NCBI GenBank assembly: GCA_000503875.1
Contig: CP006913.1
Span: 750,001 to 782,000, forward strand
Direction: 5' to 3'
Length of the DNA stretch: 32,000 nt
DNA from: Candidatus Saccharimonadota bacterium
Lineage (GTDB): Bacteria; Patescibacteriota; Gracilibacteria; Absconditabacterales; Absconditicoccaceae
Shown here in pieces: positions 1 through 32,000 of this stretch. A model generated the notes under the pieces. The model saw only the letters and a program-made list of their open reading frames with translations. It did no database searches and was not told where the DNA came from. Numbering within the stretch: position 1 is the stretch's first letter; each line of letters begins with the position of its first letter. The translations under genes were made by a program, and so were the position numbers.

Positions 1-1
1 A

Positions 2-373
2 GTTGAGCAAGAGTTTTCTGATTACTTTTGGATAAATGATCCAATTGGAGCAAATAATTGATATTATACAACCGTATCTATATCAGATCTTTCATGATCA
101 TATGAAAGCATCAATAAAAACAATGTTTGATTAAAAGCAACTGAAATAACAACCCTTTCATGAACAGTAAATCCTCGTGTTGAAATAAATAGCAATCTTT
201 TAAATTATCAACCAATTGGAGAACCAATCACTTATATCAAAAGAGATGTTGCAAGCAATTATTGAATAAAAGGAAAATATGGAAATAAACCATGGTTAAA
301 ATTTGATATTCCTGCTTATGTAACTATTGACGATTATCATGCAACATTTACATATACTCTTTATGAAAATTAG
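2..373 (+). CDS. 3' end of a secreted or cell-surface beta-rich protein (5' end lies outside the window)
   Basis: Frame 2 is open from the window edge to TAG 371-373 when 5 in-frame TGA are read as Gly. The sequence is T/S/N/Y-rich and ends ...KPWLKFDIPAYVTIDDYHATFTYTLYEN. No family assignment is possible by eye. Confidence 0.5.
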
Positions 374-439
374 TTTGCATCTGACAAAGATTTTTCTATA
401 TACTAAGCTAATCAAAGTTTTAACTTTTACAAACAAAAG

Positions 440-1489
440 ATGAAAAAATTTTTGGCATTATTATTTTTTTTAGGAGCACTTTTTATAAGTAATACATATG
501 CCGCTACTATTGGTGATGTTGCTTTAAGATTTTGTAATAATTCTGGATCATTAGAAAAAACAATATCGCTTACAACAAGTGGACAAGAACAAAAAGAAAT
601 TTGTATGATGCTTATCAATTGATCTTATGAACCAACAGATGTTAGTATAAATTTTGTAGATGGAACAATAACAAACGATGCTGACCAAAAAAAAGCATGT
701 AAAAACGAATGAGAAAATCAGAATTTTTGACAATATATGACTTTAGAAAATAAAACCATAAGTGTACCAGCCAGAGGAAACACTACATTTACAGGAGTTT
801 TGGAACTTCCAGAAGAAGCAGCAGGAGAAATACATGGATGCGTAACTTATTTCATAAATAATGAAAAAAATCAGAAAGAAATGTTTACTATTATGGTTCG
901 TAGGGCAAATTTTATAGATATTTTTGCAAAAGGAATAGTAACTATTTGATTGGAATTTGTCGATATTGAATCACCAACAAAAAGTATTTCAAAAAATCCA
1001 AAACTCGTAAGCTTCTTTGATACCAAAGAAAATAAATTATATATTCAATCTATGTTAAGAAACAAAGGAACTGCTGAGCAATGAATTACCATAAAAGGGG
1101 AAATTAAAAATCGATTTGGCTACAAAAAAACATTTTTTGAAGAGAAAAGGACTATTTTTTCAAAGCAAACATCAAACATAAATAATGTTATAGATGATTT
1201 ACCATTTTATAAAGGACCTTTCACTATAACATATAGCGTAGAACATAGTGCAAATGTATCAGAATGACTAGAAACAGATACAGAAGAAAAAACAGGAATA
1301 TTGGCAGAAACAACAAGCATTTTGATAATAACTCCAGCTACTTATATTAGTGTACTAGTATTTTTACTAATAATTGCTGGGATATCTTTCTTTATTATCA
1401 GAAGAAAGCATAAAAAAACAAAAACAGCTCACACAACAAACCATAAAGGAACAAAAAAACATCATAAAATAGTCGCAGAAACTTCCTAA
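440..1489 (+). CDS. Cell-surface protein with N-terminal signal peptide and C-terminal TM anchor plus basic tail (architecture reminiscent of DUF916/DUF3324 proteins, tentative)
   Basis: Track ORFs 440-622, 737-949 and 1301-1489 share one frame and join through 5 TGA with no TAA/TAG. The N-terminus is MKKFLALLFFLGALFISNTYA. The C-terminus is ILIITPATYISVLVFLLIIAGISFFIIRRKHKKTK. The stop is TAA. Confidence 0.6.
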
Positions 1490-1580
1490 AGAAGTTTAAC
1501 GACGATTTCTATCGCTATAACACAAATCAACTATAACTTTGAAATTACTATAAGACAAATAATTTACTTTTTTTGAAACA

Positions 1581-2969
1581 ATGCGAAAAAAATTGTTCAT
1601 GTGAATATGCTTAGTATTTTTTTTAGCGTTATTTCACAAAGCAATAGCCGTCGATGTTGACCTATACTTAAGTATTGTTAACTCCTTTTCTTGAACGGTA
1701 ATAGTTACATGAAATAATACGATAACTCAAAACTGAATTACTTATACATCGACAACAACACCATCCCTCCAAATTTTCTCTAATGTTGGATCTAGATATA
1801 ACATATCATGAGATCTTGTATCAGCAATAAGTTGATCTCAATCAAATCCTTATACAATACAAACGATAATACAGGTAAACAAAACTAATGCTATAAATGA
1901 CATTTTTCCTATATTTTGGAGAGAAATAGAACTTTTAACACATCCAAAATTAAAGATATTTGTTGATACCTTAGGTCCAACACTACCTACTATCATAGCT
2001 CCAATAAACAATTCAAATGTAAACGGTCCTATAGTTATTTCTCGAACACCATCAACAGATATTGGAGCATGACTAAAAGAATATATAATTCTTATTTCCA
2101 CCGATCAACTATTTGCGACCACAATATATTATCAAACGACAACCAATAATGAACAATATATCAATATGAATACCTTCAACGAAGGAAAATTATATCTCAA
2201 AATTTTGGCAAAAGATGAAGTAGCAAATATCAGTGAATCTCAAACGCTGACTATTTGCAATAAATGTAGTGCTCCTCCAAATTGATGAGGTGGTGGCTGA
2301 TGAACATATACTCCTCCAACACAACCAACAGATATCCAACGAATAACAATTATTGAAAATTGGGAACAAAACCAAGAACTTACACAAAAAGAAGAACCAC
2401 AAATTTGATTCATCAGTAATCTTTTGTACGACGAAGAACTTTTGGATGCATATAAATATGCATATAATCTAGGCATAACAACAATGCCAACGGCATATCA
2501 AGCAAACCTTAAAGGGAAATTAGTAAGAAAAGATTTGGCCAAAATGATTTCAGAATATGCTATCAAAGCATTAAAACTCAAACCAGACAATAGATTAACA
2601 TGTCTTTTCAATGATTTGGAAGATGAAACATTAGAAACCAAATATTACACAAAGCTCGCATGTAAATTATGATTAATGGGACGACATGCCGATGGAAAAG
2701 AAAAATTAAATGATTTTATGCCAAATGAAGCAGTAAATAGAGCTCAATTCGGAACAGTTTTATCTAGAACAATTTTTTGAGAAAAAAACAACGTAGAAAC
2801 AGGTGAAAACTATGAACGATACCAAAAACATCTCCTAGCACTCAACCAAAACAATATTATGAAAATTATAAATATTCCTTGGATGATAGAACTGAGATGA
2901 CGAGTAATGCTTACTATGATGAGAGCAGATCCAAACCGTGAAATCCAACATACTTCTGCGAAACAATAA
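1581..2969 (+). CDS. Secreted protein with poly-Gly linker and C-terminal SLH-like repeats
   Basis: I translated from ATG 1581 (MRKKLFMGICLVFFLALFHKAIA signal) codon by codon to TAA 2967-2969 and the only interruptions are TGA. The linker PPN-GGGGGGG-TYTPP lies at 2283-2303. The C-terminal segments (YDEELLDAYKYAYNLGITTMP..., YYTKLACKLGLMGRHADGKEKLNDFMPNEAVNRAQFGTVLSR) resemble S-layer homology repeats. Confidence 0.6.
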
Positions 2970-3008
2970 ATCTCATCTAAAACAAATTTTACAAAATAAA
3001 ATTTTTCT

Positions 3009-3728
3009 ATGCAATTATTTCACGAAGAACATACAATACAAAACAATAATCTGATTATTTCAAATCCCGATACTATCGCTCAATGTAGAAAAGTCCTCAG
3101 ACTCAAAACTGGGGATATAATTCACGTTCAATCTACCAAAGCCAATACAACGACTAGACACCTCGTAAGAATCTCTGATATAAGCCAAACACTTATCGGA
3201 GAAATTATAGAAACTACAACAAAAAATAAATGAGAAAATTATACGCAAATATTTGTTGCTATGCCAAATAAACACGATAAACTAGAACTTATCGCCCAAA
3301 AATTAACCGAACTTTGAGTAGATGAAATTGTTTTCCGACCTGCAGAAAGATCAATTATAAAACAACGAAATAAAAATAAGGAACAAAGATTACATCTCAT
3401 TGTCAAAGAAGCTACCGAACAATCTCGAGGTTGGTTTATACCACAGATTTCTTTTAGAGAACATCCTGAAGATACAATCCAAAAAGATTCAATAGTGTAT
3501 ATTTTTGACAAAAAAGAAAACGCAACAACATCTATAGAAAGCTCTTCCAAAAAAACAGGAATTATTGGCCCAGAAGGAGGACTAACCGAGAAAGATTACA
3601 ATCGCTTCGCAAAACATACCCAAAAAACCTACGACCTTGGCTCAACCATCCTCAGGATGGAAACCGCAGCTATTGTTGGATGATGGTTATTGAAAAGTAA
3701 TTTCGAACACCCAAAGAATCTACATTAA
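3009..3728 (+). CDS. rsmE: 16S rRNA (uracil1498-N3)-methyltransferase RsmE
   Basis: Three same-frame pieces join through TGA. RsmE-type motifs are present: KHDKLELIAQKLTELGVDEIV, KEATEQSRGW, GIIGPEGGLTEKDY and LGSTILRMETAAIVG. Confidence 0.8.
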
Positions 3729-3929: not shown

Positions 3930-5243
3930 ATGTATTCCATGAAATCTCTTATCAAAAAAATAATTTCATACGACAAAATATATCATTTTCTCAAAACAAG
4001 TATCTTGTACCATTTTCGAAAACAACTCAACGGACAAATCGCAAATACTATTTACGGACATCCATCCAAAGATTTTTTCGTTATCGGAGTTACCGGTACC
4101 AACGGAAAAACAACAACCGTAAATCTTATTCACAAAATCCTCAATGATTGTCTAGGTAAAACTATGATGATTAGTACTGCAAATATAAAAATAGGAAACA
4201 AAGAAATCAAAAATATCAAAAAAATGACATCATTGGATATTTATGATCTTCAATCAACGCTCGCAATCGCCAAGGATGCTGGCTGCAAAATTGCAGTTCT
4301 CGAAACATCTTCTCATGGCTTAGATCAATATAGATTTGAAGGCGTAAATTTTGATTGTGGGGTTCTGACAAATATTACACATGACCACCTCGATTATCAC
4401 AAAACAATGGATGAATATGCAAAAGCAAAAAAGAAACTTTTCACCTATATAATGCACAACGAAAAAAATCACAAATATGCTATTCTTCCAAGTGATGATC
4501 CTTATGGGAAAAAACGATTTGAAGAGTTCGCCTTTGACAAAAAAATTAGTTATAGTATTCATACATCAGGATTTCTCAAAGCTGAAAACGTTCAACAATA
4601 CAAAGAAAAAACAACGTTTGACATCAATTATCTAGGTAAATCATATTCTATTACGACTCATTTAGTCGGACTTTTTAACGTATACAATATTCTCGCTGCT
4701 CTTGGTGTTGCTCTAGAAATTGGCGTAAACATAGAAAAAGCCATCGCATCAATCCAAGAATTCATTGGCGTTGAAGGAAGAATGCAAAGAATCGATCACA
4801 AAGAAATCACTGCCTATATCGACTTTGCACACACTCCAGATGGATTAGAAAAAGCCTTATCTTACCTCAAAATGATAAAAGGAAAATGAAGATTAATCAC
4901 CACCTTCGGTGCCCCTTGAGTTAGAGACAAAGAAAAAAGACCTATTATGGGACAAATTGCAGCTGATTATTCGGATATTGTTATCATTACTGACGACGAT
5001 CCCGATACAGAAAATAGACTCCAAATAATCGACCAAATTCAAAAATGAATTTCAAATAAAATTCTAGGAAAAGATCTTTTCATCATTCCAGAAAGAACCC
5101 TCGCCATCGAATTCGCTACTAATATAGCTCAACCTGGAGATATTCTTATGTTCGCAGGTAAAGGCCACGAATCAATCCAATTCACCAACACTGGCAAACG
5201 CCCTTGGAGTGATTTTGAAGAAGTAAAAAAGAGATTAAAGTAA
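3930..5243 (+). CDS. murE: UDP-N-acetylmuramoyl-L-alanyl-D-glutamate--diamino acid ligase MurE
   Basis: Motifs seen are GVTGTNGKTTT (P-loop), LETSSHGLDQYRFEGVNFDCGVLTNITHDHLDYH, GRMQRI and DFAHTPDGLEKAL. The ORF continues through TGA as KGK-G-RLITTFGAP-G-VRDKEKRPIMG...FAGKGHE to TAA 5241-5243. The start is ambiguous among TTG 3912, ATG 3930 and ATG 3939. Confidence 0.85.
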
Positions 5244-6443: not shown

Positions 6444-7043
6444 CTATCCCAAAGTTGGATCAATCATGTATTCTGCTTTTACTGAAGAGACCTTTTTTAA
6501 ATCAAGATCCTTTGCCGTAAAATAATATTTTTCTCCTTTCCAAAGCAAGAAAGCCCCCTTCTCATCGTTACCAAAATGTGTCATATCAAAATTTTCTCCC
6601 CAATATGCAGAATCATGCACTCGATCACAAAACGACTCTTTTTCAAACACAAAAGGCTGATTCACCATCTCATACAAATCCTTTTCAAAGTCATATTTCC
6701 AAACACTATGTTTTTGTCCCAAATAGATATATCAAATCTTAGGTAAGATGCCTTTTTTCACAAAATAACGGTACAAATCTATCTTCGTACACGAAAAAAA
6801 ATTCACCGTTTGCTTACGCAAATGCAGAAGATGGGCCACCAGATTCCAGGTCAACGCTCAAACCCTGAGGTTTGTAAACCCTCCTGGCCCATTAACCAAA
6901 AACACCTGATCAAAGGGAGATTTTTTTGCTCGATCAACCAGTGTTGGCCCCAAAACCTTCTCAATTCCATTGCGCTCCAAAAAAATCTCCCCCTGAGCAT
7001 CACATATATGTACTTTATCACTCGAAATATTACAGAATAACAT
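6444..7043 (-). CDS. tsaB: tRNA threonylcarbamoyladenosine (t6A) biosynthesis protein TsaB-like
   Basis: Track ORFs 6858-7142 and 6444-6722 share one frame and join through TGA. The motif VNGPGGFTNLRV-G(TGA)-ALTWNLV matches the TsaB GPGSFTGLRIG motif. I chose the start at MLFCNISSDKV (7041-7043). The C-terminal half is atypical. Confidence 0.6.
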
Positions 7044-7191: not shown

Positions 7192-9777
7192 ATGAAAATT
7201 CGCAAAAAATTATTAGGATATCTTACGGTTATTGGGTTGTGACTAGCTGCATTTGCACCATCAAGTATGATGGGAAATACTGCACAAGCACAAACTCCAG
7301 AACAAACTGCAGCAGCACAAAAAGCTACAGAAACAGTTACTGTAGAGCAAGCTCTCAATGAATTTTGGGTACTTATCGATATTGGATTAAAATTAATCTA
7401 TATTGTGATCTGGCCTATGCTTTTCCTTGCAGGAATTGCTTTAGATAACTCAATGGTTTACGGTTCTTTTTTCCATATGGATGCTCCATTATGGTTTTTT
7501 TGGAACATGACCAAAAACTTTGCCAATTTTGCACTAGGATTTATTGTGCTTTTTGCAATTCTCAAAGGAATCTTCAGTTCATTCTGAGATAAAGGGAAAG
7601 ATGCTCGAAATCCCATAGAAATCATCAAAAAAACATTAATTGCTGGAGTTCTTATTCAAGCAAGTTGGTTTATTTTAGCAGCTGTTGTGGATATTTCAAC
7701 TATCGCTACCTACGCTGTCGGATGAATGCCAATGGCTTTATTAAATAACAAAGATATCAAATCAACTCAAACAAAAATTCGACAAACAGAAAGCCACTTA
7801 GAATTAAATAATATAAATAAGCTCCAAGAAGATGTATTCAGAGTTTGGTATAAAACTAATTTAATATGAGAAGATGGAAGCAAAACCGGAATTACTGTTT
7901 CTCCTTGTTTAACACAAAAATTATGAACAAATACTTATATTGTAGGGAGAAAATATGGTGACGCAAAATTCAGTAGCCAAGAAATTAGTAAAAATTTACC
8001 TGATGATATGAAAATTTCCGATGATGAAGAATTTCTTACAAGATGAATTTGTATTTTTGGAAATAAACCCTACTTTTTCAATGAATTTCCCAACATAAAA
8101 TCACGAATAAAAACAAATAGTGAATATCAAAGCATATTAAATGCAAATCTAAACGCTATTTGAAATTTTACTGATGATTTAGCAAATTGTAGATTTATTA
8201 TAAACCTAAATAACGAAAATTGATCAGAAAAACCGACAAGTTGTCAAGAAGCAATAAATAAATTGAGATGAAATTTAGATGAAACCACAAAACAATTTAT
8301 AGAAAACAATGATGATTTGGCTTGGCTAAAAGATTGATCAGAAGAATCTATAGAAGCAGATTGATATCTTGAAAAAATAACACCAGATACTTTTTATTCA
8401 GCATATGGATCAAAAGCGGGTTTTTCTCGATTTTCCAATACACTTGCACCAACCGTTTCGCAAATTATCGATAAATCAAAAGGATTTGTAGGTCCATTTG
8501 TAACTATTTATGCATCTATTATGGATTTTGCTAATTTAAGCGACTCAAATTCAAACACTAGTTCGATAGGAAAAAATTTGGGAAATATGATGATTAGAGT
8601 TGCTGTTGCAGCGGGATTAGTTTTTCCTCTTATAGCATTGGCAGTAGTATTATTTATTAGAATCTGATTTTTGCGAGCAATTATAGCTACGAGCCCTCTA
8701 TTAATTTTAGCGAATGTATTTAAGGACACTATTAAAATAGATCTTTGAAAGCATTTTACGATAGAAAATATTCTTCAAGCAATATTTGCACCAGTAATAA
8801 CAGTTTTTGCTCTAAGTATCTCTATGATTTTTATGACGACACTGTCAAATTCATTGGTTACCGATAACATCGACAAAGTTAATATTATGCAACAATTTGG
8901 AGGTGAATTAAAGGATGAAGGTGAAAATACTCATTTAACTTTGGCAGGATTTACTATTATTTATCCAAAAATTGTTGATACATATGCAGGAGCGACAGGA
9001 GATTGGTTCTCTTGGATACTTCTTTCTTTTTGTTGAATAGGTATTATGCGATTTATTCTTTTCGCAGCAATCAAAGCAAGTTGAACAATTGGATCAGTTG
9101 GTACAAAGATCAAAGATTTCTGAGAAAATGTATTCAAAACAGCTCCTATTATTCCTATTGGTGGCGGTGTTGGATTTGGAACATTATCTGAAACAATGAA
9201 TGTTGAGAATGCAAATAAAATGCGAGAAAATAAAATTGGTTACAAACAACAGAAAGAAGATATGGAAACATATATGACAGATAAATTTGCTACTGCAAAA
9301 TGAGATGAGTATGGTACCGATAAAACATTTAGTGAGAACGAAAAATCAATACTTCAATCTACAATAAATGGTGGAGATTCGAAACAAATAGAACAAGTCA
9401 TGGTAGATAAATGATTTGTAGGCAAAAACTTATCACCAGAAGAAAGAAAAAAGAGAATTGAAGAACTATACAACGAATCAGGTGATTTCCAAGATATAGT
9501 AATAAGTAATTATGATAATAAAGGTATACAAGCATTATTAGGAGAGAGTGTTATCAACAAAGGAATAACAACAATAATAAACAATGAATTAGATTGAACA
9601 TTTAATAGCAAAGAAGAATTAACAAATAAATTGAAAAATATAAATGAAAACAAAAAAAATATTATTGAAAAAATGAAAAACGATTTTACAAAAGAAATAA
9701 CAATAAAAGAGGGCGATGAAACAACTAAAATAAAGATAACAAAAGATACTAACAACCAATTAAAAATCACTTCTTAA
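7192..9777 (+). CDS. Large polytopic membrane protein, paralog A (861 aa; possibly TrbL/VirB6-like, tentative)
   Basis: I checked the frame line by line from ATG 7192 to TAA 9775-9777 and the only interruptions are TGA. The signal peptide is MKIRKKLLGYLTVIGLGLAAFA. There are several hydrophobic helices, a Cys-containing ectodomain and a charged C-terminal tail. It shares conserved blocks with the next gene. Confidence 0.7.
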
Positions 9778-9797
9778 TTCTTATTATATATAAATAC

Positions 9798-11669
9798 ATG
9801 ACTAAACTATCTCACATCAAACAACGATTATTATCTTCTCAAGGACAAAAAATAAGTCTGACTTTTTTAATCGTTGGAGTGTTTTTCTTTGCATCAACAT
9901 TTGCTCAAGGTAGTCCAGAAACTAATACGCAAACATCAAAATTATTAATCAATGCTCAATATGTTATTTGAGAGCTTACTAAACTTTTTTCTCGATCTTG
10001 GATTCTATTGGCAACACTTGCAGGTAAATTTATGACAAATGATATGGTATATGGTTCATGGTTACATTTAGATGTATATCTTTGGAAACTTCGAAATATA
10101 TGCAAAAACTTTGCCAATTTTGCGCTTTTGGGAATATTACTTCGAGAAATTATTCAATATGTTACAAAAAAAACGGGAAGCATACAAAGTATTGTAACCA
10201 AATCAGTAATTGCGGGAATATTAATTCAAGCAAGTTGGTTTATTATGGCAGCATTATTGGATATTTCTACAATTGCTACTGCTGCAATTGGAAGTTTTCC
10301 AAGTCATTTTATAGATAGTAACGCTTTCTCAAAATGAACAATGAGCAATGAAATAGATTTAAATATAAATGCTTACAAATTGATATTTGATAAAAATATG
10401 TCGCCTACATTAGAAGAAACAAATGAAAAAGATAAAACAACGACAACAGTCGATGAATTAATTCAGAAAATTATGCCAAAAAATGATTCCGTTGCAGGAC
10501 CATTAATATATATTTGAGCATCAACATTAAAAATTCAAAATGCATTAATTCGTCCCAAAAACCAAGATATTAATGTTGAAAAAGTATTTACAACATCTGT
10601 TTTACAATTTCTTGCTATAGGAATTTATTGTATCACACTAATTTTACTTTTGATAACAAATATTATTAGAGTAGGATTATTATGGGTGATTATACCTCTT
10701 TCGCCAATTTTGGTGCTTATGTTTACCTTATGAAAATCAATGGGGAAAGAAGGTATTGCCAAAAATTTTGATATAGGAGTTATCCTCAATGCTATATTTA
10801 AACCAGCTATTTTTACCTGAGTACTTTCTTTGGTCTTAATTTTCATCGTAAGTATGCAAAATATTATGACTAGTGGAAACGATCAAAGTTTTACCATCCA
10901 ATGAACAACTTTTGGTTCTTCAGGAAGTCTAGCAACCATGGAAGTAAAAGATTTATTCAAAACAAGTATCAATGACACAGTTTTCACACAAGCAGGAAAT
11001 ATGGGGAAAAACATTTTTTCAAACATAATTATTTATTTTGCAACCATATTTTTATTACGATATCTCGTAAAAATAGCGGCAACTTCTGGTGGCTGAACTA
11101 TTTGAGAAACTATGACAAAAGCAACATGATTGGTAGAAAATATGGCTAGTACCACTCCAATTCTATGATGATATTCTGTAAAAGCATATATGGAAGGATC
11201 TAATAAAGCAATGGTAAATATGTGAAGAGCCGCTGGAGTAGATTTAAATTATTGATCTTCTAATTTTGGTAAAATGGAAAATGAAGAATATAGAAAATGG
11301 TTAAGTACAAAACTTGGAGAAGAACAACGAAGAAGTGGAGACATTTCTGCTTTGGAAACAGCTAGCAATTTTAGCTCTTTTATGAACAAAACAAATAGTA
11401 TTTTAAAAGACGCTCCATTATCATATAAAGATTCTCAAGAAACATTTGAGAAACGAGAAACATTATTTAATAAAATTTTGGTCAAAGAAGAATGAAATGT
11501 TTTCATGGAAAAGAAAAAGAATTATTTCGATGATCCAACAAAATTAACCTTACAGTGATTAAATAAAGAATGATTTAAAAAATTACACGAATTATTAGGC
11601 GGTACTGATGGAAGTATACCTAAAAATTACGATGAATTTAAAAAAATAAAATATGGTAAGGTAGGATAA
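9798..11669 (+). CDS. Large polytopic membrane protein, paralog B (623 aa; possibly TrbL/VirB6-like, tentative)
   Basis: ATG 9798 to TAA 11667-11669 is open apart from TGA. It shares blocks with paralog A: MVYGS(F/W)xH(M/L)D, KNFANFAL, IAG(V/I)LIQASWFI(L/M)AA..DISTIAT, and R(I/V)G(F/L)L...SP(L/I)L. Two 21-nt stretches are identical between the genes (7512-7532 = 10103-10123; 7654-7674 = 10224-10244). Confidence 0.7.
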
Positions 11670-11689
11670 CAACCACTTGCATCTCATAC

Positions 11690-15500: not shown

Positions 15501-15601
15501 ATAAATGAGATACTATTCTGATGATAGAACATGACCAAAACATTCTTCAATTCGCAGATAGTGTAATTCACCTAGATGAAGGAAAATTGATAAATAAATA
15601 A
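12599..15601 (+). CDS. uvrA: Excinuclease ABC subunit A
   Basis: The protein is 1000 aa when read through TGA. Motifs seen are GVSGSGKSSLAFDTIY, GLSPAIAIEQ, a zinc-finger CxxC pair, LSG-G(TGA)-E signatures at 14225-14227 and 15359-15361, a second Walker A GPSGAGKTTL, and DEPTxGL twice. Confidence 0.95.
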
Positions 15602-19466: not shown

Positions 19467-22400
19467 ATGAAACAAAAGATTTTTTTGGGAATTGGAATCT
19501 TATTATGTAGTATCATTGGATTTTCTATTTACAATGAATTTATGACAAATCACACGTATTATTACACAATGTTTAGTGATCGAACAAACTGGAAAATTAT
19601 GATTCGATGAATAATTGCAATTTTGATTCCTTTAGGATATATATTACGAAACAAACAATTTTCACTTAAAAAGTTTTTAATTACTCGACTTCCTGCTGGA
19701 CTTACCATTTTCGGTCTTGCTCATATTATCATCAAAGAAGGTATTATTTGATCTTCGGGCTTTGTCATGATAATAATCAACACCTTATTATTATATTTTC
19801 TCTGATTATACCTTATTCTAGGAATTACTAGTGTAGGACATATGATAAATAAATATCGAATTCGTTTGCCTCAGCAAAGAATACAAGAATTGTTCTTAAA
19901 TTTTGGTATAGGATTAGGTGCCTTTTTATTAATAATTAAAGTCTTAGTAAGTTTTACTATTTTATATTGAGCAGTTACTTGGTTACTCTTTATTTGATTA
20001 GGGGTAGCTATCTACTTTTTCAGAAAAGATTTAATAAAATATCAATTAATTATCGAAGAACAGTTTGATAGTATCAAACAAAGCTCACTCAAAAAAGATC
20101 CAATTTTGTGGATTGGACTGGTTTTGGTAGCAATTTCACTTTTATATTATTTTTATGGGTTTCATCTTTCTTTTATTCCTTATTCTACGGCTTGGGATGC
20201 AAATCATGCCTATATGTATGTACCAAAAGTAATAGCTGAAAATCACGGAGTACTACGAGGAAACCTTTGAGTAGCCGCAACACCACCAGAACTTCGACAT
20301 GGATTTATAACTTTTTGGTTTAGTCTTATTGGTGCTATCAAATGGTTTTGGTTGGGTCCAGATACTGTAGCGGTTGCTATGAATTTCCTTAGTGGAATAT
20401 TTACACTTATTCTTGGATTGTGAACAATAAAAGAAATCATTAATTATTTTACAAAAAAAGAAACAACCTGAACTAAAATAGCATTCTATTTATGACGGTT
20501 TTTACTCATTCTATGGCTTACAAGCGGAATGTGAGCATTTCTCGTTTTCGTAGACAACAAAACCGATCTTTGAGTTATGGCGATCACTATGTTAGGAATG
20601 CTTTCATGATTAATATTTCTCAATTATATAAAAAACAATAACGAACCACGTCAAAAAGAAACACTGAAATATATCGTTATTTCTTGAGTATTCTTCGCTC
20701 TTGCAACTATGGCAAAACCAACAGCGTTTATTGATATCGTATTATTCGGATTACTTCTGGTAGCTCTATGGATCAATTCGGTTATCGCAATTTGATTTGG
20801 TGTTATTGTAACTGGAATGACAGGTATTTTGCAAATAGCCAATGCTAGAGATCTCATCAGTCAAGAAACAGGAAAACGAGTAGTAATTGCTGGAATAATA
20901 ATTGTTATCTGTGGAATTATTTATACTTATTTTCAAAAACATTTTAAGAATCTGAAAACAACATTAATTAATATTGGAATATGGGTAGGAAGTATACTTA
21001 TCACGCTTATATTATTTAAAGGAACGCATCTTATTTATTCTCAAATACAAAACAATGATTTTGGTGGTTGAAATTTTGTAAAAGCATTATTATTAGCAAC
21101 AACTGGTGAAAACAAATTAGAAGATCAAACAACTATTGATCAATTACAAAAAAACAAACTCTGATTAGAAACTTGCGAAGCTATGAGTTTTACAAAGGAA
21201 GAATTAGAGAAAAACAAAAAAAAATCTATTGTATGAAATGAAGATGTTGGAAGATATGTAGGATACGGTTGGAAAGAATTTTCAAAAGGAGATGGACTAA
21301 ACATTTGATATTGAATACTTAGATTGATATACCCTCAAAATGATACTTGTTACGGTTTAAATAAAAATGCAAAAATATTATGTAAAAATAGTAACATGGT
21401 ATTGTCTTTTAATATTCCAGGGTTAAAAGGCGTTTTGAATACATTAGATTCAGATTCAGAAAGTTATAAAGTTTTAAAAAAAGCTCTTCAAAACGCAGAA
21501 AATAAAGGACAAGTAACTTCTGCGGTTGAATATAGAGATGAAATTTTAATGATAAAACAATACTACGAAAGTCGTTCAATTAAAACAGAAAATGGAAAAG
21601 TTTTTGTTCCATATAGATATATTATCCCATTGAATATTTCATTCAACTGGTCATTACAAAATCTAAGTAGTTATTACACAGACATAGGTTTCATCTGGTT
21701 ATTTGCTATGGCATTTATTATTTTTGGTTTAATTTATTGATGTATCAAAAAAGATAAGACCCTAATAAGTATAAGTAGTATTGCAATCTTATGATGGGCT
21801 ATTTGGTGGATGATTTGATGATGAATTCTCTGGTATGGATTGGGATTAATTATTCGAACAATTCTATCTGCAATAATGTATGTAAATCAAATTTTCGACG
21901 ATAGTACTGAAGATACTGAGAAAAACATGTTGTATTTTTTCCTATTTCTTTTTGCTATTTGGGGTATAATCCAATTATTTTTCAATTTTATTAGAATTTC
22001 TTCCCAAGGATCATGAGGACCATTTGCTCGATACAAAATGAATACAGGAAAAACTATAGAACTTGATGCAAATTTACAACAAAAAGAAAGTATTGTAAAT
22101 AAATACGATTGGAAAGATGTTTTTGATCTTCAATTTCCACATTACAATAAATTTATCGAATTAGTCAAAGAAAGAAAAGATGAAGATGGTGTTTTTATAG
22201 CAGGAACATATATTCAGTATTTTCTTCATAATCAAAGAAATATTAAACAAGATTGAATGTTATGACGATTACGAGAAGAAATGTCAGATAACGATAGTTG
22301 CAAAACTAGCCAAAGACTAAAGAACGCAAATATTAAATATCTTGTAATTGACCCAAATATTGGAACAGTTGGAATGGGCGAAGGAAATGAAACACTTTTC

Positions 22401-22982
22401 CACAGATTCTTTGCTAAATTAGATCCAGTAAGTGGTAAAATAGAATCTCATGGAGTTATTAGTATGCTTATGAAAATGAAACAAGAATGATTCTTAGACC
22501 TAATAAATACGAACAATTTAGGTACTAAATACGCATTAGAATTAGACGATAACAAATTGAAAGAATCTTTTGGACAGACACTTTCTCAAGAAGATCTTAT
22601 TTTTACAAGAGCAAAACTTTCTGTAGCTAGATATTTTCAAGATGCAAACAATTATATTAATTTTATTGCAAATATGTTTGTAGAAAGAATCCCTACTGGA
22701 AAAGCAATTGGAGATATAGCAGACGTTTATGGAAAAATTATCGATGAAGAAAAAGTTCAAACTGCTGCAAATACATTATTACAATCTGGACAAGTTACTA
22801 CTCAATTACTACAACAAACAACACAAAATCTTTCTCAAGATGAAAGATTGATTCTTGCCCAATATCTAAGCCTTTTCAATCTTAAAAGATCTGAAAACGC
22901 AAAACTTCAAGAAGCTGTTAACGGTATCTTAGGCCAAAGTTTAGGATGAAGTAGCCAAGTAATCGTTTTAGAATTATTATAA
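19467..22982 (+). CDS. Very large polytopic membrane protein (1171 aa), possibly a GT-C-fold glycosyltransferase-like protein (tentative)
   Basis: Track ORFs 20817, 21324, 22038, 22281 and 22557 are all in the frame of ATG 19467. Codon-by-codon reading gives no TAA/TAG until 22980-22982. The protein has more than 12 hydrophobic helices, a loop YSTAWDANHAYMYVPK and a soluble C-terminal region of about 330 aa. Confidence 0.7.
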
Positions 22983-25308: not shown

Positions 25309-25704
25309 ATGCTAATAACATCTCCAGAAGCTATGCACGAATTAGGAAAATCATTAGCAAAAGATCATAAAATTTTATTATTACAATGAGATTTAGGCAG
25401 CTGAAAAACAACTTTGGCAAAGGGGTTCGCAGAATGATTGGGTATTGACTCAAAACATGTCCAAAGTCCAACATATACATATTTAAATGTTTATAATAAC
25501 AAATTATTGCATATTGATATGCGAAGAATTAACGAACATAAAGAACTAGTTGAAAAAGGAATTTTAGATCAAATACATCAATACGAATATATTCTTATTG
25601 AACGACCAAAGCATACACAACATCTCTGATTAGCCAAAGCAACTATTGTCGATATCAAAAAAACCTCTCCAACAACTAGAGAGGTAAATATAATCAAAAA
25701 CTAA
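25309..25704 (+). CDS. tsaE: tRNA t6A biosynthesis ATPase TsaE (YjeE)
   Basis: The Walker A reads LLLQ-G(TGA)-DLGS-G(TGA)-KTTLAKGFAEGLGI. It is followed by VQSPTYTYLNVY, LHIDMRR and ILIERP, which is the TsaE pattern. The stop is TAA 25702-25704. Confidence 0.85.
25657..25684 (-). terminator. Rho-independent terminator for the minus-strand surface-protein gene, embedded in the tsaE 3' coding end
   Basis: On the minus strand CCTCTC-TAGTTGTTG-GAGAGG is followed by T7. It starts 24 nt downstream of the minus-strand stop at 25708-25710. Confidence 0.55.
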
Positions 25705-25707: not shown

Positions 25708-27552
25708 TTATAGGTTAATTCCATAGGTTTCCAACGACTGTTTGAACTGTTCTAAATGATAATTAGAGAGATTCTGTTTACAAGTATTGTTATCATCTTT
25801 AAGTAATTTCAAAATCACTGAGAAATTATCAAAATTTTGAGCAATATCTTTAAGTTCTAATTCAGACAATGGAGCTTTTTCAAGGTTTTTTAGAATGTAT
25901 AAGATAAAAGAGTTTATAAGTGTTTTCGTTTCACTTTTTTTAAAAGTAGGCATATTTAAAATCAATTCAGTTCATTTAATCTGAAGTTTAATTTTGCTAT
26001 AACTAATATCATTTTTACATTCGGAAAATTTATCAATTTCATCTTTGAATTCTTCCAAAATCGACTCCTGAACTCAAGTATTAATCTGTAAAGATCATGA
26101 TGTTGATAAAAAATTAACTCATGAAGCATAAGTAGTTAATGTTTGTCCATACAAAGTTGCCAACAAAGTAAATGAAATAGCTCCTGAATTATTGCGTTTC
26201 AAAGCAAGAGCTGCTTTACTTTCATTTCCTGCAATATCTTTAACAGCTATTCCCAGATCATAATCTGTATTTAGCAACAATGTTGGTAAAGAAAACATAT
26301 GTCATGTAGAAGCGCCTGTCATAGCAAACGCCCAACCATTAGTAGTATTCTTAAGTAAAACGAATGATGTAGCACGAGTAAGTTCTGATGTAGTAAATGA
26401 GAAATTATATCCAGACAACACAAAACCTGTTATTTGCGGATAGATTAAATCGTAAAATAATTGAGAAACTCCTGTGTTCGTTCATGTAAATCCAACAGAA
26501 TCTTGATAAGAAATAGTATAACCAAGATATCATCCTGATAAAGAGGTTGGTAATACATAACGATATGTATAGTGATTACCTGACAATCCAGAAAAAACTG
26601 CTTGTCCAGAACCAATACTAACACGAACTCATGTTAATGATTCTGATGCATCAAAATGTAAAACAATAGGAGCGCCTACACCAACCATTCCAGATAATGT
26701 GCCAGATGATGATAAAGAAATATTAGAAAGTGTTGGCTTTTTATTATCAATAGTAAAGTCAGTTGTTTCAGATAAAATAGTATCTGGTTGTACCAACCAT
26801 CTCAAATGATATCCTGTCCATGAATTCATAGAAACTCATTGATACGTTCACATAACAAGTACTATTGTTTCACCACTTGAATTGAGTCCTGTTTGATTAT
26901 AAAATCCAGATCCCAAAAGTGTTGTATCAAAAATATATCCTGTTGTTGTTCAAGGAACTCTTGCTAAAGTAATCCATTCTTCATTATGATCATATAACTG
27001 AATATCAACGATTTCATCAGCACAGTTTGGGGAAATTGTCCACGAAATATTCATGATTCATGTATAAATAGTTGATGTAACTATATTTGAAGAAAATCAC
27101 AAATAACTACATTCTTCGTCCTCTTGAAATCAATAGTCTTCTGGATCTACCAAATCACCAGTTCATTCAACATTTCCTGTCAATTCAATATCTCCTGTCA
27201 ATTCAACATCTCCAGTTAATTCAATATTTCCTGTCAATTCAACATCTCCAGTTAATTCAATATCTCCTGTCAATTCAACATCTCCAGTTGATTCAACATC
27301 TCACGTTAGTTCAACATCTCCAGTTAATTCAACATCTCCAGTTGATTGAGATAATACCAAGTCATCAGCAAAACTAGCATCATGAGAAGCATTATATAAC
27401 ATATAACTTGTAGCAAAAAGCATAACTACTTTTGCAACGAGAAACATTCATCCTGCAAGTCATCAAAAAAATAGATACGTATGATGGTGCTTTTTTACGT
27501 GATCAACCACCCTTTTTGCATGGCGAACTACACTATGATTTGAATTTAACAT
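25708..27552 (-). CDS. Signal-anchored surface protein with (TGDVEL)n hexapeptide repeats and beta-rich (Ig-like?) body
   Basis: I checked every line in frame from 27552 down to TAA (complement of 25708-25710) and the only interruptions are TGA. The N-terminus is a basic region followed by the TM YLFFGGLAGGMFLVAKVVMLFATSYML. About 11 hexapeptide repeats follow. The rest of the 614-aa protein is T/S/G-rich. Confidence 0.7.
27145..27342 (-). repeat. In-frame 18-bp tandem repeat, about 11 units (ACTGGAGATGTTGAATTR; peptide TGD[VI]EL)
   Basis: Units lie at 27325-27342, 27307-27324, 27289-27306 and so on down to a degenerate unit at 27145-27162. Units 4-9 alternate in a 36-bp super-period (TGDVEL/TG[DN]IEL). 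Confidence 0.9.
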
Positions 27553-28465: not shown

Positions 28466-28563
28466 ACAAATGGCTTAGGGAGCTAAATATGTGTAGTATT
28501 TTTCCCATTGAAACGTATATATTATACTCCATTTTTTTAATTTGTCAAGTAAATCATACAAAG

Positions 28564-29787: not shown

Positions 29788-29821
29788 AAAAAAGTCAGTC
29801 TTTCCAGACTGACTTTTTTTA
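29786..29821. terminator. Bidirectional rho-independent terminator
   Basis: An A-run, AGTCAGTCT-TTCC-AGACTGACT and a T-run form the hairpin. It lies between convergent genes ending at 29787 (+) and 29828 (-). Confidence 0.85.
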
Positions 29822-29827
29822 TTATAT

Positions 29828-30907
29828 CTAAGCAAAATCCTTTAGTATTTTTTCTATAATTTCTTTTGATTGATAAATACTTTCAATTTCTACATATTCA
29901 TCAATTTGATGGGCCTTTTCAAATGGTCACGGTCAAATCAAAAGACAATCTCAACCAATATATTCTTTTATAAGTTGAACATCAGAATATCAAAACGTAA
30001 GTCCAGATTCAACCTTAGAATATTTAGAATATTTATTTAATAAATCAGATTGAATAAGAGGATAACACCAATTCTTTTTTTCAAGACTAATTATTTTTAT
30101 TCAATTTTTATCAAGATAGTTCCTTGTAAAACTTTCAAATTCTTGATAAGAAAGCATATTTCACAATCTGAGAGAGAAAATTCATTTGGCAGTATTGGGG
30201 ACAATATTAGCCTGAGAAACTATTATTCAATCTTTATCAATACCTCAATGTATACCAGCTAAATTTGTTAAAGAAACATATCAATCACTATCTTTTGTTT
30301 GGATATATTCTTCTAAATTTTCAATATAATGGATATATTCTTCTATAGCATTGATTCCAAGATGTTTTAAAGCTGAATGGACAGACACTCATCCTATTTG
30401 TAAATTTACAACAGCTATTCATCTAAATCATGTATATATTATTTTATTCGTTGGCTCAGTTACAATAGTTAATTTGGGTTTTATTTTTCATCCATACACT
30501 TCTACAAATTTTTTCATACCCAAAAAGTTATATTCTTCATCTGTATACGAAAGAATCCAAAATTTAATTTTATTTTTAAGCATAAAATCTATCAATGCTA
30601 TGTTAATAGCAACACCAGCTTTCATATCCACAGCTCCCCTACCATATAATTTATTTCAATCAATTCTAGGAATAAATTGTTCTTTAGATAATTCAGGAAC
30701 CACATCTACATGTCATGCAAGGATAACATCAGGTTTATTTGTATTTTTTATAATCAGATTATACCTTCATTTATCTGATATATCCTGTTTTTCATAAATA
30801 AGCTGATCTCAATAAATATTTCTAACATATCCTTCGATAAACTCGATAGCTTGGTTTTCTATCTGAGTTGTATCGAAAGTAATAAGCTTTTGTAAGAAAT
30901 TTAACAT
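29828..30907 (-). CDS. M20 family metallopeptidase (ArgE/DapE/ACY1-like deacylase)
   Basis: Motifs seen are ILA-G(TGA)-HVDVVP, LYGRGAVDMKAG, SYTDEEYNF and GPGPFEKAHQIDEYV. I checked the frame line by line and counted 18 in-frame TGA by hand. The stop is TAG (complement of 29828-29830). Confidence 0.8.
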
Positions 30908-30923
30908 AATTATTTTAAAATAT

Positions 30924-31463
30924 TTAAAAGTTAATACGTTTTACCATAAATCATGAAACAATTTCAGAAAGTTTTTCAACATCACTATAATCATGATCAT
31001 TTCCTGGCAATTCCACGAAAGAAAAATCATTTGAAATCTGACTAACTTCACCTACAACTTCCAAATAGCTACCCGCTGGATCTTCTTTATTTTGGATGAA
31101 CAAGACGGGACATGAAATTTTGGATAGATACGTTTTTAACGAAAATCACATATTTTTAATATATCACAAAGGCAATCATACAAAAATACATTTTTTCGGG
31201 AGAAATCATTGATCGATCATAAGTTTCATAGCCAATACGGTTCCCAATGATTTTGCGAAGATCACCAAATCTTTCTGATCTTTGATTTTTGAGTAAACAA
31301 GATTTATCTCTTTTTCTATATCCATACTTCCCTCTCACGACAACCAATGTTGATATTCATGGATAGTTGTTTCATCAAAAAGAGAAGCGAGTTGTTCCTC
31401 CACTTTTTTAATCCAGCTTTGATTATGAATACTATTTCAACCAAGGAGAAGAAGGTTGGGCAT
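30924..31463 (-). CDS. Small alpha/beta-fold hydrolase-like protein
   Basis: Motifs seen are MPNLLLLGGNS, a nucleophile-elbow-like DLVIFAKSLGTVLAM, CPVLFIQNKEDP and a late His in GNDHDY. The frame differs from track ORF 31156-31347, which I treat as spurious. Confidence 0.55.
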
Positions 31464-31487
31464 AAAAGCAAGATAAGGAATAAAAGA

Positions 31488-32000
31488 CTAAAGATCTATA
31501 ATCAACCCATCATGAGCAAAATCAAATGGAACATCCTTATAGGTATTTTTCATTTTTTCTAGATAATCTAGTCACCAGGCATTAATTTCTATCTCTTCAA
31601 TATGAGTCAAAAGAGTCTTTTTCGGAGCATACAATTTCAATCTATCCATTAATTGCGGGAATCAGATTTCACTTTTTACTTTTTCGTGACTAAAGACTCA
31701 ACATTCAGTAATCAGTAAATCAAGATTTTGCGCTTCTTGCTGAAAACTAATGGTATCACAAGGTGTATAGAGGAATCTTTTTCTTCATTGTTCAAAAAGA
31801 TATCAATAAGTTTCAGATTTTTCTCCTGTAAATCATATTGCGGTTACCTGCGTATCACCAATAGTTACAGACTGATTGTGTTCTATATATACGATATTTG
31901 CTAGACCAAGAACATCAACAAAATAGTTGATAGAAGGATAGTGTATTTTCATGTCTTCATGAACTCTTTTCGGCATATAGAGTTGGATAACTTTTTGTTT
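31488..32000 (-). CDS. MBL-fold metallo-hydrolase-like protein, C-terminal part (5' end lies outside the window)
   Basis: The frame is open from the window edge to TAG (complement of 31488-31490) apart from TGA. Motifs seen are LYTPCDTISF, DLLITECGVFSHEK, KKTLLTHI and FAHDGLIIDL, which fit the C-terminal half of MBL-fold hydrolases. Confidence 0.5.

What the first reader, a model, noticed from the sequence alone, without database searches (positions are those of the whole stretch)
1..32000. TGA is a sense codon for glycine (translation table 25), which places the window in a Gracilibacteria/Absconditabacteria-type CPR genome
In-frame TGA interrupts every recognisable gene, and the flanking ORF pieces always stay in the same frame. 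The TGA codons fall on invariant glycines in several genes.
- UvrA: the ABC signatures L-S-G-[TGA]-E at 14225-14227 and 15359-15361.
- TsaE: the Walker A [TGA]-DLGS-[TGA]-KTT at 25387-25389 and 25402-25404.
- GreA: [TGA]-DLSENFEY (complement of 17059-17061).
- TsaB: GPGGFTNLRV-[TGA] (complement of 6858-6860).
- RuvX: VL-[TGA]-IDWG.
- MurE: FGAP-[TGA]-VRDKEKRP.
- The linker at 2283-2303 is TGA TGA GGT GGT GGC TGA TGA.
- Within the 18-bp repeat array, one unit (27289-27306) has TGA where its sister units have GGA.
TGG is still used at Trp positions. All 28 gene models end in TAA or TAG. Table 25 is already described, so the code itself is not novel, but it is the key to everything else here. The standard-code ORF track misrepresents the locus.
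Basis: partly seen in the sequence, partly recalled or inferred. Interest (0 to 1): 0.85.

Follow-up and report, generated by a model that had tools for sequence, protein, structure and literature searches.

The report
UGA-glycine, CGA-tryptophan recoded SR1 genome

Summary
Reading through TGA gives 28 gene models covering 94% of the window, with 221 in-frame TGAs. Every complete gene ends in TAA or TAG. TGA means glycine, not tryptophan. In the best solved-structure homologs, 27 of 45 aligned TGA positions lie opposite Gly and 1 opposite Trp. In DNA of 49 related uvrA genes, the window's TGA columns hold GGN or TGA and never TGG. Family profile scores favour Gly over Trp in 7 of 7 proteins.

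The window also has 58 CGA and 3 CGG codons that behave as tryptophan. They share columns with TGG in relatives and never with real Arg codons. They lie opposite W, Y, F or H in standard-code homologs.

The window lies in assembly GCA_003543185.1. Shulgina & Eddy (eLife 2021) list that assembly as 'likely Absconditabacteria', with UGA=Gly, CGA=Trp and CGG uninferred. The code is therefore already known. Table 25 would misread 45% of the Trp codons here as Arg. The tRNA-Gly(UCA) gene and loss of RF2 could not be checked in this genome.

The parts
1..32000 (.). Whole window: 28 genes written in a code with UGA=Gly, CGA/CGG=Trp and UAA/UAG as the only stops. GC is 30.7%. It lies in GCA_003543185.1, contig DPJE01000003.1, at roughly 393.4-425.4 kb.
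   Evidence: Gly is 4.73% from GGN alone and 6.94% with TGA. Trp is 0.76% from TGG alone, 1.37% with CGR, and 2.97% if TGA were Trp.
12599..15601 (+). uvrA with 20 in-frame TGAs, including both ABC signatures LSG-[TGA]-E at 14225-14227 and 15359-15361. It has one CGG (14423-14425, residue 609) and one CGA (14780-14782, residue 728).
   Evidence: 12 of 18 aligned TGAs are Gly in T. maritima UvrA (3pih), and 1 is Trp at a variable column; relatives at TGA columns have GGN 410, TGA 336 and TGG 0; the CGG at residue 609 pairs with CGA 24, TGG 19 and CGG 6. Across 50 orthologs, 21 Arg columns hold no CGA or CGG.
25309..25704 (+). tsaE. P-loop [TGA]-DLGS-[TGA]-KTT at 25387-25389 and 25402-25404. CGA at 25522-25524 (residue 72) and 25603-25605 (residue 99).
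   Evidence: TGA is Gly at 3 of 4 positions in B. subtilis TsaE. The CGA at residue 99 lies opposite the W of 'lvEWa', and the CGA at residue 72 opposite the Y of 'dvYR'. TIGR00150 scores 73.0 bits (TGA=W), 85.4 (TGA=G) and 95.3 (TGA=G plus CGR=W).
17622..18122 (-). Nudix hydrolase with CGA at 18009-18011 (residue 38), just upstream of the PKG of the Nudix box.
   Evidence: this CGA lies opposite Trp in all three structures that align there (1kt9, 3u53, 1vc8: 'W-x-x-PKG'); relatives have TGG 4 and CGR 4.
16696..17184 (-). greA with 4 TGAs, including [TGA]-DLSENFEY at 17059-17061.
   Evidence: Gly in E. coli GreA ('ehGDLkENaEY'); relatives have TGA 7 and GGA 2. TIGR01462 scores 114.8 bits with TGA=W and 131.3 with TGA=G.
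3930..5243 (+). murE-type Mur ligase with 3 TGAs (FGAP-[TGA]-VRDKEKRP at 4917-4919) and 2 CGAs (4017-4019, 4515-4517).
   Evidence: all 3 TGAs are Gly in T. maritima MurE (4bub), and the CGA at residue 196 lies opposite Phe. TIGR01085 scores 399.8, 411.6 and 414.9 bits under the three codes.
29828..30907 (-). M20 (ArgE/DapE-family) peptidase. It is the most TGA-dense gene: 18 TGAs against 12 GGN.
   Evidence: TGA lies opposite Gly in the conserved A-G-H-D-V, G-x-x-x-H-S and G-P-G motifs. NF005710 scores 98.3 bits with TGA=W and 130.5 with TGA=G.
3009..3728 (+). rsmE with 3 TGAs and 3 CGAs. The CGA at 3426-3428 (residue 140, 'EQS-[CGA]-GW') is the one site where an Arg-like reading is not excluded.
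   Evidence: residue 140 lies opposite K/Y/G/G in four structures and sits one residue before the conserved 'EQSxR' Arg; relatives have CGR 3 and Lys 1. TIGR00046 scores 104.9 bits with CGR=R and 104.2 with CGR=W.
19467..22982 (+). Polytopic membrane protein of 1171 aa with no family match. It has 29 TGAs, 12 CGAs, 1 CGG (20496-20498) and 19 TGG. Many CGR codons fall inside hydrophobic stretches.
   Evidence: its CGR columns in 4-5 relatives hold essentially only CGR or TGG, with two exceptions (one column with a Gln, one with two TGA); for example residue 797 is TGG 5/5 and residue 855 is TGG 4/5.
7192..11669 (+). Two tandem paralogous membrane proteins (7192-9777 and 9798-11669), each with 7 CGAs. 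The paralogs align 'LWFFWNMTKNFANFAL' against 'LWKL-[CGA]-NICKNFANFAL', with the CGA at 10092-10094.
   Evidence: 48% identity over 108 aa; residue 99 of the second paralog has CGR 19 and TGG 7 in 26 relatives. Residue 139 of the first (7606-7608) is an exception, with Lys 7 and CGR 5.
27154..27347 (-). Tandem array of about 10.8 copies of an 18-bp unit encoding TGD(V/I)EL, inside gene 25708-27552. One unit has TGA for GGA, and the last unit has TGA where the sisters have Leu.
2283..2303 (+). Linker TGA TGA GGT GGT GGC TGA TGA, which reads as Gly x7.
6444..7043 (-). It contains GPGGFTNLRV-[TGA] at 6858-6860. The family assignment is unverified.
   Evidence: No hit in Pfam, NCBIfam or PDB. Both of its TGAs still pair only with GGN/TGA in 19 relatives.

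Best explanation
The window is ordinary chromosomal DNA of an uncultured Absconditabacteria (candidate division SR1, order Absconditabacterales) bacterium. Its genetic code differs from the standard one at three codons: UGA is glycine rather than stop, and CGA and CGG are tryptophan rather than arginine. UAA and UAG are the only stops. Arg is encoded by AGA, AGG, CGU and CGC.

Shown here: the meaning of the codons, from alignments to standard-code proteins and from codon exchange among orthologs.

Inferred from the literature and from related contigs: UGA is read by a dedicated tRNA-Gly with anticodon UCA, and release factor 2 has been lost. CGA and CGG are read by tRNA(UCG) and tRNA(CCG) that carry Trp rather than Arg identity. 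CGU and CGC are read by tRNA-Arg(GCG), because this group lacks the inosine tRNA(ACG).

Low GC (31%) fits the codon-capture route proposed in the literature: the GC-rich CGR codons became rare as Arg codons before being reassigned. GGA-to-TGA drift is now spreading TGA through glycine sites, most strongly in the most AT-rich genes.
For: UGA=Gly. By eye, 27 of 45 aligned TGA positions lie opposite Gly in the top PDB homolog and 1 opposite Trp. The binomial probability at an 8% Gly background is 1e-18. At TGA columns of 49 related uvrA genes the codons are GGN 410, TGA 336 and TGG 0. Over 19 gene families the figures are GGN 38% and TGA 33%, with TGG not among the seven most frequent classes. 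NCBIfam scores are higher with Gly than with Trp in 7 of 7 proteins, about +97 bits in total.

CGA/CGG=Trp. Window CGA columns in relatives hold CGR 47% and TGG 23%, then L/F/I/Y; Lys is 2% and Arg is not in the top seven. Window CGG columns hold CGR 61% and TGG 39%. Window AGA/AGG/CGT/CGC columns hold R 46-70%. Across 50 uvrA orthologs, 21 Arg columns contain no CGA or CGG, and 7 Trp columns contain essentially only TGG/CGA/CGG (2 other codons in 350 cells). Against standard-code structures, Nudix residue 38 is W in 3 of 3, TsaE residue 99 is W and residue 72 is Y, UvrA residue 609 is H/Y, MurE residue 196 is F, and M16 residue 180 is Y/N/Y. Arg appears in 1 of about 29 comparisons. Profile scores rise with CGR=W for TsaE (+9.9), MurE (+3.3) and M16 (+2.1).

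Identity. The window is in GCA_003543185.1. [quoted passage not shown] The closest UvrA relatives are labelled Absconditabacteria, SR1 or Absconditabacterales.

Decoder. 44 metagenomic loci carry one conserved 76-nt tRNA with anticodon UCA, G1-C72, C2-G71, G3-C70 and U73. In most of those loci ORF coverage is poor unless TGA is read through.
Against: No tRNA lies in the window, so the decoders were not seen in this genome here. tRNA presence comes from the published table, which has no column for tRNA(UCA) or RF2. Rfam's tRNA model reaches its gathering score on the tRNA(UCA) family in only 1 of 4 loci tested. CGG rests on only 2 testable sites in the window; the third CGG was not tested because its gene had too few relatives. 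Codetta left CGG uninferred for this assembly and called it Arg in the fairly close relative UBA5124. Two CGA sites sit in columns where relatives or homologs have Lys: RsmE residue 140 and residue 139 of gene 7192-9777. The RsmE profile score drops 0.7 bits with CGR=W. All of this is sequence inference. Shulgina & Eddy themselves say only experiments can establish the in vivo translation or exclude ambiguous decoding.
Confidence: 0.93

Rival explanations
1. Plain NCBI table 25, the first reader's reading: only UGA is reassigned (to Gly), and CGA/CGG remain arginine.
For: UGA=Gly is correct. RsmE residue 140 and residue 139 of gene 7192-9777 have Lys in some relatives or homologs. The RsmE profile marginally prefers Arg at its CGA sites.
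Against: CGA and CGG never occur in the 21 conserved Arg columns of 50 uvrA orthologs, and they fill the Trp columns. Window CGR columns pair with TGG, not with AGR/CGY. Standard-code homologs have W at Nudix residue 38 and TsaE residue 99. Codetta infers CGA=Trp for this assembly.
Confidence: 0.03
2. CGA (and perhaps CGG) is decoded ambiguously, mostly as Trp but partly as Arg, or CGG keeps the Arg meaning while only CGA has switched.
For: Codetta left CGG as '?' for this assembly and called it Arg in the relative UBA5124. A few CGA sites lie in Lys-containing columns. The source paper notes that ambiguous translation cannot be excluded computationally.
Against: Both testable CGG sites in the window (14423-14425 and 20496-20498) lie in columns containing only CGR and TGG, over 57 cells. 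The source paper argues that a tRNA(UCG) would read both CGA and CGG, which makes split meanings hard to maintain. No CGR occurs at any conserved Arg column.
Confidence: 0.08
3. Table 4 (Mycoplasma-type): UGA encodes tryptophan.
For: Many database translations of relatives show W at these columns. Read-through alone restores the ORFs equally well under table 4.
Against: Those W residues are consistent with table-4 translation artefacts, because the relatives' DNA has TGA or GGN there and never TGG. Only 1 of 45 PDB-aligned TGA positions is Trp, against 27 Gly. All 7 profile scores are lower with W. Trp content would be 2.97%.
Confidence: 0.005
4. Standard code, with the TGAs being real stops: pseudogenes, sequencing errors, selenocysteine or programmed read-through.
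For: The public gene table for the NCBI copy, evidently called with TGA as a stop, shows only fragments.
Against: There are 221 in-frame TGAs, no in-frame TAA/TAG and no frameshifts across 28 genes. Identical sequence was assembled independently three times. The TGA positions are conserved as GGN in dozens of genomes. Rfam finds no SECIS element or other RNA element.
Confidence: 0.002

Closest known systems
Absconditabacteria (SR1) genetic code of Shulgina & Eddy 2021 (eLife 10:e71402; PMC8629427): UGA to Gly plus CGA and CGG to Trp
   Same: All three codon meanings, the low GC (0.31, within their 0.26-0.38 range), AGA as the dominant Arg codon, and very rare CGG. The window's own assembly, GCA_003543185.1, is in their table with UGA=Gly and CGA=Trp.
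   Different: Essentially nothing. They left CGG uninferred for this assembly, and two sites in the window point to Trp. CGA is commoner in this window (58 per 10,000 codons over all genes, 42% of Trp codons) than their genome-wide figure in Pfam-aligned columns (25 per 10,000); the two measures are not directly comparable.
NCBI translation table 25 (candidate division SR1 and Gracilibacteria; Campbell et al. 2013, Rinke et al. 2013, as cited)
   Same: UGA=Gly, UAA/UAG as stops, and the CPR lineage.
   Different: Table 25 keeps CGA and CGG as Arg. Here they are Trp, so table 25 mistranslates 61 codons in the window.
CGG to Trp reassignments in Anaerococcus and an RFN20 Bacilli clade (Shulgina & Eddy 2021)
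   Same: An Arg CGN-box codon is captured by Trp in a low-GC genome, with an anticodon one mutation away from CCA.
   Different: In those clades only CGG changes. CGA stays Arg, read through tRNA(ICG), because tRNA(UCG) is absent, and UGA is unchanged. Here both CGA and CGG change, together with UGA.
Table 4 (Mycoplasmatales and several insect endosymbionts): UGA to Trp
   Same: UGA is a sense codon and the genome is small and low in GC; published accounts describe RF2 loss in both groups, which was not tested here.
   Different: The amino acid is Trp there and Gly here. In this clade TGA never exchanges with TGG.

Membership tests
NCBI translation table 25 | UGA is a sense codon for glycine | tested here: met
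   27 of 45 PDB-aligned TGA positions are Gly and 1 is Trp. Relatives have GGN/TGA and no TGG at these columns. Profile scores favour Gly in 7 of 7 proteins.
NCBI translation table 25 | UAA and UAG remain the stop codons | tested here: met
   All 28 models end in TAA (20) or TAG (8), with none in frame.
NCBI translation table 25 | All other codons keep their standard meaning | tested here: not met
   CGA and CGG behave as Trp, not Arg (published for this assembly).
Absconditabacteria code (UGA=Gly, CGA/CGG=Trp; Shulgina & Eddy 2021) | CGA encodes tryptophan | tested here: met
   Over 539 cells, window CGA columns hold CGR 47% and TGG 23%, with Arg codons absent from the top seven classes. Standard-code homologs have W at Nudix residue 38 and TsaE residue 99. 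No CGA occurs in 21 Arg columns across 50 orthologs.
Absconditabacteria code (UGA=Gly, CGA/CGG=Trp; Shulgina & Eddy 2021) | CGG encodes tryptophan | tested here: met
   The evidence is thin: there are only 3 CGG codons. The two testable ones (14423-14425 and 20496-20498) lie in columns of CGR 61% and TGG 39% over 57 cells. UvrA residue 609 lies opposite H/Y in structures. The third (5816-5818) was not tested because its gene had too few relatives. Codetta gave '?' for this assembly.
Absconditabacteria code (UGA=Gly, CGA/CGG=Trp; Shulgina & Eddy 2021) | Low genomic GC (0.26-0.38), Arg mainly AGA, and CGN-box codons depressed | tested here: met
   GC is 0.307. Counts are AGA 154, AGG 16, CGT 34 and CGC 11.
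Absconditabacteria code (UGA=Gly, CGA/CGG=Trp; Shulgina & Eddy 2021) | tRNA(UCG) and tRNA(CCG) with Trp identity, tRNA(GCG) for CGY, and no tRNA(ACG) | not testable with these tools
   No tRNA lies in the window, and the rest of the genome is not readable here. [quoted passage not shown] Identity elements were not inspected here.
UGA-to-Gly recoded lineage (Absconditabacterales / BD1-5) | tRNA-Gly with anticodon UCA in the genome | not testable with these tools
   It could not be looked for in this genome. At lineage level, 44 metagenomic loci carry a conserved tRNA(UCA) with G1-C72, C2-G71, G3-C70 and U73, most of them on contigs whose ORF coverage rises sharply when TGA is read as sense. Rfam confirms 1 of the 4 tested.
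UGA-to-Gly recoded lineage (Absconditabacterales / BD1-5) | Loss of release factor 2 (prfB) | not testable with these tools
   The whole genome is not available to the tools. No prfB lies in the window.
Order Absconditabacterales (SR1) | Closest relatives belong to that order | tested here: met
   UvrA is 87% identical to that of 'Candidatus Absconditabacteria bacterium STD2_163'. At 60-75% identity come many genomes labelled SR1, Absconditabacterales or Absconditicoccaceae. The source paper lists the assembly under 'Likely Absconditabacteria'. No phylogenetic tree was built.
Table 4 (UGA=Trp) | UGA aligns to Trp columns and exchanges with UGG | tested here: not met
   TGG is absent from TGA columns. 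All 7 profile scores are lower with W.

The most novel reading that the evidence does not exclude
The reassignment of the CGR codons may not be clean in this lineage. Codetta could not call CGG for this genome and called it Arg in a fairly close relative. Two CGA sites in the window sit in Lys-containing columns. CGA already supplies about 42% of the Trp codons here. This leaves room for residual dual Trp/Arg decoding, or for lineage-to-lineage differences in CGG, which would make this a living intermediate in a sense-codon reassignment.
Probability: 0.1. Interest if true: 0.55.

Novelty: already known. Interest (0 to 1): 0.3.

Why it matters
The biology is published. UGA=Gly in SR1 and Gracilibacteria dates from 2013, and CGA/CGG=Trp in Absconditabacteria from 2021, including for this assembly.

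The practical point is that the label 'table 25' is not enough for this clade. In this window it would put Arg at 61 positions that are Trp, which is 45% of all tryptophans. Many of these lie in membrane segments and some in conserved motifs, such as the TsaE 'EW' and the Nudix 'W-x-x-PKG'.

Public resources are worse still. One copy of this locus carries fragmented gene calls that treat TGA as a stop, and many relatives' proteins have Trp at columns where their DNA has TGA, as a table-4 translation would give. The translation-table predictor paper read here (gTranslate, bioRxiv 2026) chooses only among tables 11, 4 and 25.

Any downstream work on these genes needs the three-codon correction. 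That includes structure prediction, family profiles and completeness estimates.

Tried and rejected
It ran with the homolog P0001, but the top 150 hits were mostly double-length UvrA-like proteins ranked by summed score, so I did not use them for the column tally and relied on PDB alignments instead.

(2) Protein-level comparison with close relatives is not independent evidence, because database translations mix G and W at TGA columns. I replaced it with codon-level alignments of the relatives' DNA.

(3) The tRNA hunt gave nothing in the window. Only tRNA-Arg(GCG) and tRNA-Lys turned up in 1.1 Mb of relatives' loci. The metagenome pattern scan found the tRNA(UCA) family, but none of those contigs could be tied to this genome, and no SR1-type tRNA(UCG) or tRNA(CCG) turned up.

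(4) The Rfam scan of the window found nothing.

(5) The TsaB assignment for 6444-7043 found no support in Pfam, NCBIfam or PDB, whether masked or recoded.

(6) prfB absence could not be tested, because the tools cannot read the rest of the genome.

(7) I considered M16 residue 180 ('YG-[CGA]-PTIG') as a possible conserved-Arg counterexample from memory of MPP-beta. The aligned structures have Y/N/Y there, so it is not one.

Full report
**Observation.** The window is 30.7% GC. Under the standard bacterial code, stop-to-stop ORFs of at least 100 aa cover 36% of the window. When TGA is read through, 28 non-overlapping gene models cover 94%. They contain 221 in-frame TGAs and no in-frame TAA or TAG, and they terminate in TAA 20 times and TAG 8 times. 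With TGA masked as X, Pfam recognises RsmE, a MurE-type ligase, RuvX, UvrA, GreA, a Nudix hydrolase, HrcA, a 5'-3' exonuclease, TsaE, an SLH-domain protein, and M16 and M20 peptidases. The domains run straight across the TGA positions. The window contains no tRNA and no Rfam family.

**What TGA encodes.** Three independent lines agree on glycine.

(a) Standard-code structures. I read the alignments to the best PDB homolog by eye. In them, 27 of 45 aligned TGA positions lie opposite Gly and one opposite Trp. These include both UvrA LSGGE signatures, DEPTIGL, the TsaE P-loop G-DLG-x-G-KTT, GreA G-DL-EN-EY, MurE FGA-x-G, three of three sites in the 5'-3' exonuclease, and M20 A-G-H-D-V and G-P-G. 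At an 8% Gly background the binomial tail is about 1e-18.

(b) Codon exchange, which needs no translation table. I aligned uvrA DNA from 49 related genomes. The window's 20 TGA columns there hold GGN 410 times, TGA 336 times and TGG never.

(c) Profile scores. NCBIfam whole-protein scores are higher with TGA=Gly than with TGA=Trp in 7 of 7 proteins. Examples are GreA 114.8 to 131.3 bits, M20 98.3 to 130.5 and TsaE 73.0 to 85.4.

Composition agrees. Gly rises from 4.7% to 6.9% with TGA included, whereas Trp would be 3.0% under table 4. Database proteins of relatives show a G/W mixture at these columns. Those W residues are best explained as table-4 translation artefacts, because the relatives' DNA has TGA or GGN at these columns and never TGG.

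At the six TGG codons of the window's uvrA, the relatives carry TGG (155), CGA (107) or CGG (30), and almost nothing else. The window itself has 58 CGA and 3 CGG codons alongside 76 TGG.

I made codon alignments of 19 gene families against relatives. The window's CGA columns hold CGR 47% and TGG 23%, then Leu, Phe, Ile and Tyr; Lys is 2%, and true Arg codons do not reach the top seven classes. The CGG columns hold CGR 61% and TGG 39%. By contrast, the window's AGA, AGG, CGT and CGC columns hold Arg 46-70% and Lys 5-42%. Across 50 uvrA orthologs, 21 conserved Arg columns contain no CGA or CGG at all, while 7 conserved Trp columns contain essentially only TGG, CGA and CGG, with two other codons in 350 cells.

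Standard-code homologs agree.
- The Nudix CGA (18009-18011) lies opposite Trp in all three structures aligned there.
- The TsaE CGA at 25603-25605 lies opposite the Trp of the 'EW' motif, and the one at 25522-25524 opposite Tyr.
- The UvrA CGG (14423-14425) lies opposite His/Tyr.
- The MurE CGA lies opposite Phe.
- M16 residue 180 lies opposite Tyr/Asn/Tyr.

Arg appears in 1 of about 29 such comparisons. Substituting Trp for Arg at CGR raises the profile score of TsaE by 9.9 bits, MurE by 3.3 and M16 by 2.1. It lowers RsmE by 0.7.

**Exceptions.** The CGA at RsmE residue 140 (3426-3428) sits one position before the conserved EQSxR arginine. It has Lys in one of four relatives and in one of four structures. 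Residue 139 of gene 7192-9777 (7606-7608) lies in a hydrophilic loop where 7 of 19 relatives have Lys. CGG rests on two testable sites only; the third CGG (5816-5818) was not tested because its gene had too few relatives.

**Source and prior knowledge.** I looked up the one TGA-free protein (23138-23917) by exact sequence. This places the window on the 462-kb contig DPJE01000003.1 of NCBI assembly GCA_003543185.1. The same sequence is independently assembled in an ENA sediment metagenome and in a Logan assembly.

Shulgina & Eddy (eLife 2021, PMC8629427) report that Absconditabacteria read CGA and CGG as Trp in addition to UGA as Gly. [quoted passage not shown] A 2026 NAR paper restates the reassignment.

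NCBI labelled the assembly 'Candidatus Gracilibacteria bacterium'; that taxid is now named Candidatus Altimarinota bacterium. The nearest UvrA relatives are labelled Absconditabacteria, SR1 or Absconditabacterales, at up to 87-91% identity. The code and its occurrence in this genome are therefore already known.

**Mechanism.** The codon meanings are shown here. The rest is inferred from the source paper and from related contigs. UGA is read by a tRNA-Gly(UCA), and RF2 is lost. CGA and CGG are read by tRNA(UCG) and tRNA(CCG) with Trp identity. CGU and CGC are read by tRNA-Arg(GCG), because this group lacks the inosine tRNA(ACG).

I could not read the rest of this genome. I therefore ran a metagenome scan for a tRNA with Gly acceptor-stem elements and anticodon UCA. 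It returned 44 loci carrying one conserved 76-nt tRNA with G1-C72, C2-G71, G3-C70 and U73. Their GC is 0.18-0.44. In most of them, above all the low-GC ones, ORF coverage is 0-0.4 under table 11 and about 0.5-0.97 with TGA as sense. The tRNA is often adjacent to tRNA-Gly(GCC/UCC) and tRNA-Arg(GCG). Rfam's tRNA model reaches its gathering score on only 1 of the 4 copies tested, which may reflect an unusual D-arm. This shows the decoder exists in the wider lineage, not in this genome.

**Verdict.** Nothing here is new to science. The useful correction is that translating this locus needs three codon changes, not one.

Noticed in passing
window 1-32000 (per-gene statistics): TGA's share of glycine codons varies from 0% to 80% between genes. 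MurE, M16 and the SLH protein are at 6-10%; M20, 5267-5992 and the MBL-fold gene are at 60-80%. The share falls as third-position GC rises (Spearman rho -0.50, p=0.007). This fits AT-biased GGA-to-TGA drift, but a link to expression level was not examined.
   Followed up: partly
window 23138-23917 (+): This is the only gene without any TGA (10 GGN Gly codons; P about 0.02 given the 32% average share). It is a predicted lipoprotein with no family match and is only about 36% identical to its counterparts in 4 relatives. Its two CGA codons fall in variable columns.
   Followed up: partly
L002 (NCBI copy of the window region) compared with L001 and L003: The public gene table for the NCBI assembly's copy of this locus holds only 40-140 aa fragments, for example GreA at 41 aa and TsaE at 63 aa. 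These appear to be calls that treat TGA as a stop. The ENA and Logan copies of the identical DNA carry full-length calls. The assembly also failed GTDB quality control, with CheckM completeness 0.50. I did not test whether mistranslation contributes to that.
   Followed up: no
window 7192-12578 (+): Two tandem paralogous multi-pass membrane proteins of 861 and 623 aa (48% identity over 108 aa, 29% over 245 aa) are followed by a 280-aa secreted protein. None has a Pfam match. The trio is conserved next to uvrA in 22-30 related genomes. Its function is unknown.
   Followed up: partly
window 25708-27552 (-), array at 27154-27347: A 614-aa protein with an N-terminal membrane anchor carries about ten tandem TGD(V/I)EL hexapeptide repeats (18-bp units, with a 36-bp superperiod at 90% match). 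It has weak Ig-like (Big_13) and beta-solenoid-type hits. No ortholog was found in the fetched relatives.
   Followed up: partly
window 31488-32000 (-) and L001 18351-20410: The truncated last gene is an MBL-fold hydrolase whose full-length product hits Pfam Anti-Pycsar_Apyc1 (PF23023). Just beyond the window lie a PqqD-family gene and a radical SAM gene, an arrangement reminiscent of peptide-maturation cassettes.
   Followed up: no
L066-L185 (metagenome loci), e.g. L183 8419-8497: The tRNA(UCA) family is almost invariant in sequence across contigs spanning 18-44% GC. It has an atypical D-arm, so Rfam's general tRNA model reaches its gathering score on only 1 of 4 copies. ARAGORN labels it tRNA-SeC purely because of the anticodon.
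   Followed up: partly
window 18624-19400 (-), 28489-29787 (+), 15691-16650 (+), 30924-31463 (-): My first-ATG gene starts are longer than the public calls for HrcA (258 against 221 aa), M16 (432 against 407), the 15691 ORF (319 against 298) and the alpha/beta hydrolase (179 against 159). The true starts are probably internal; start codons were not examined further.
   Followed up: no
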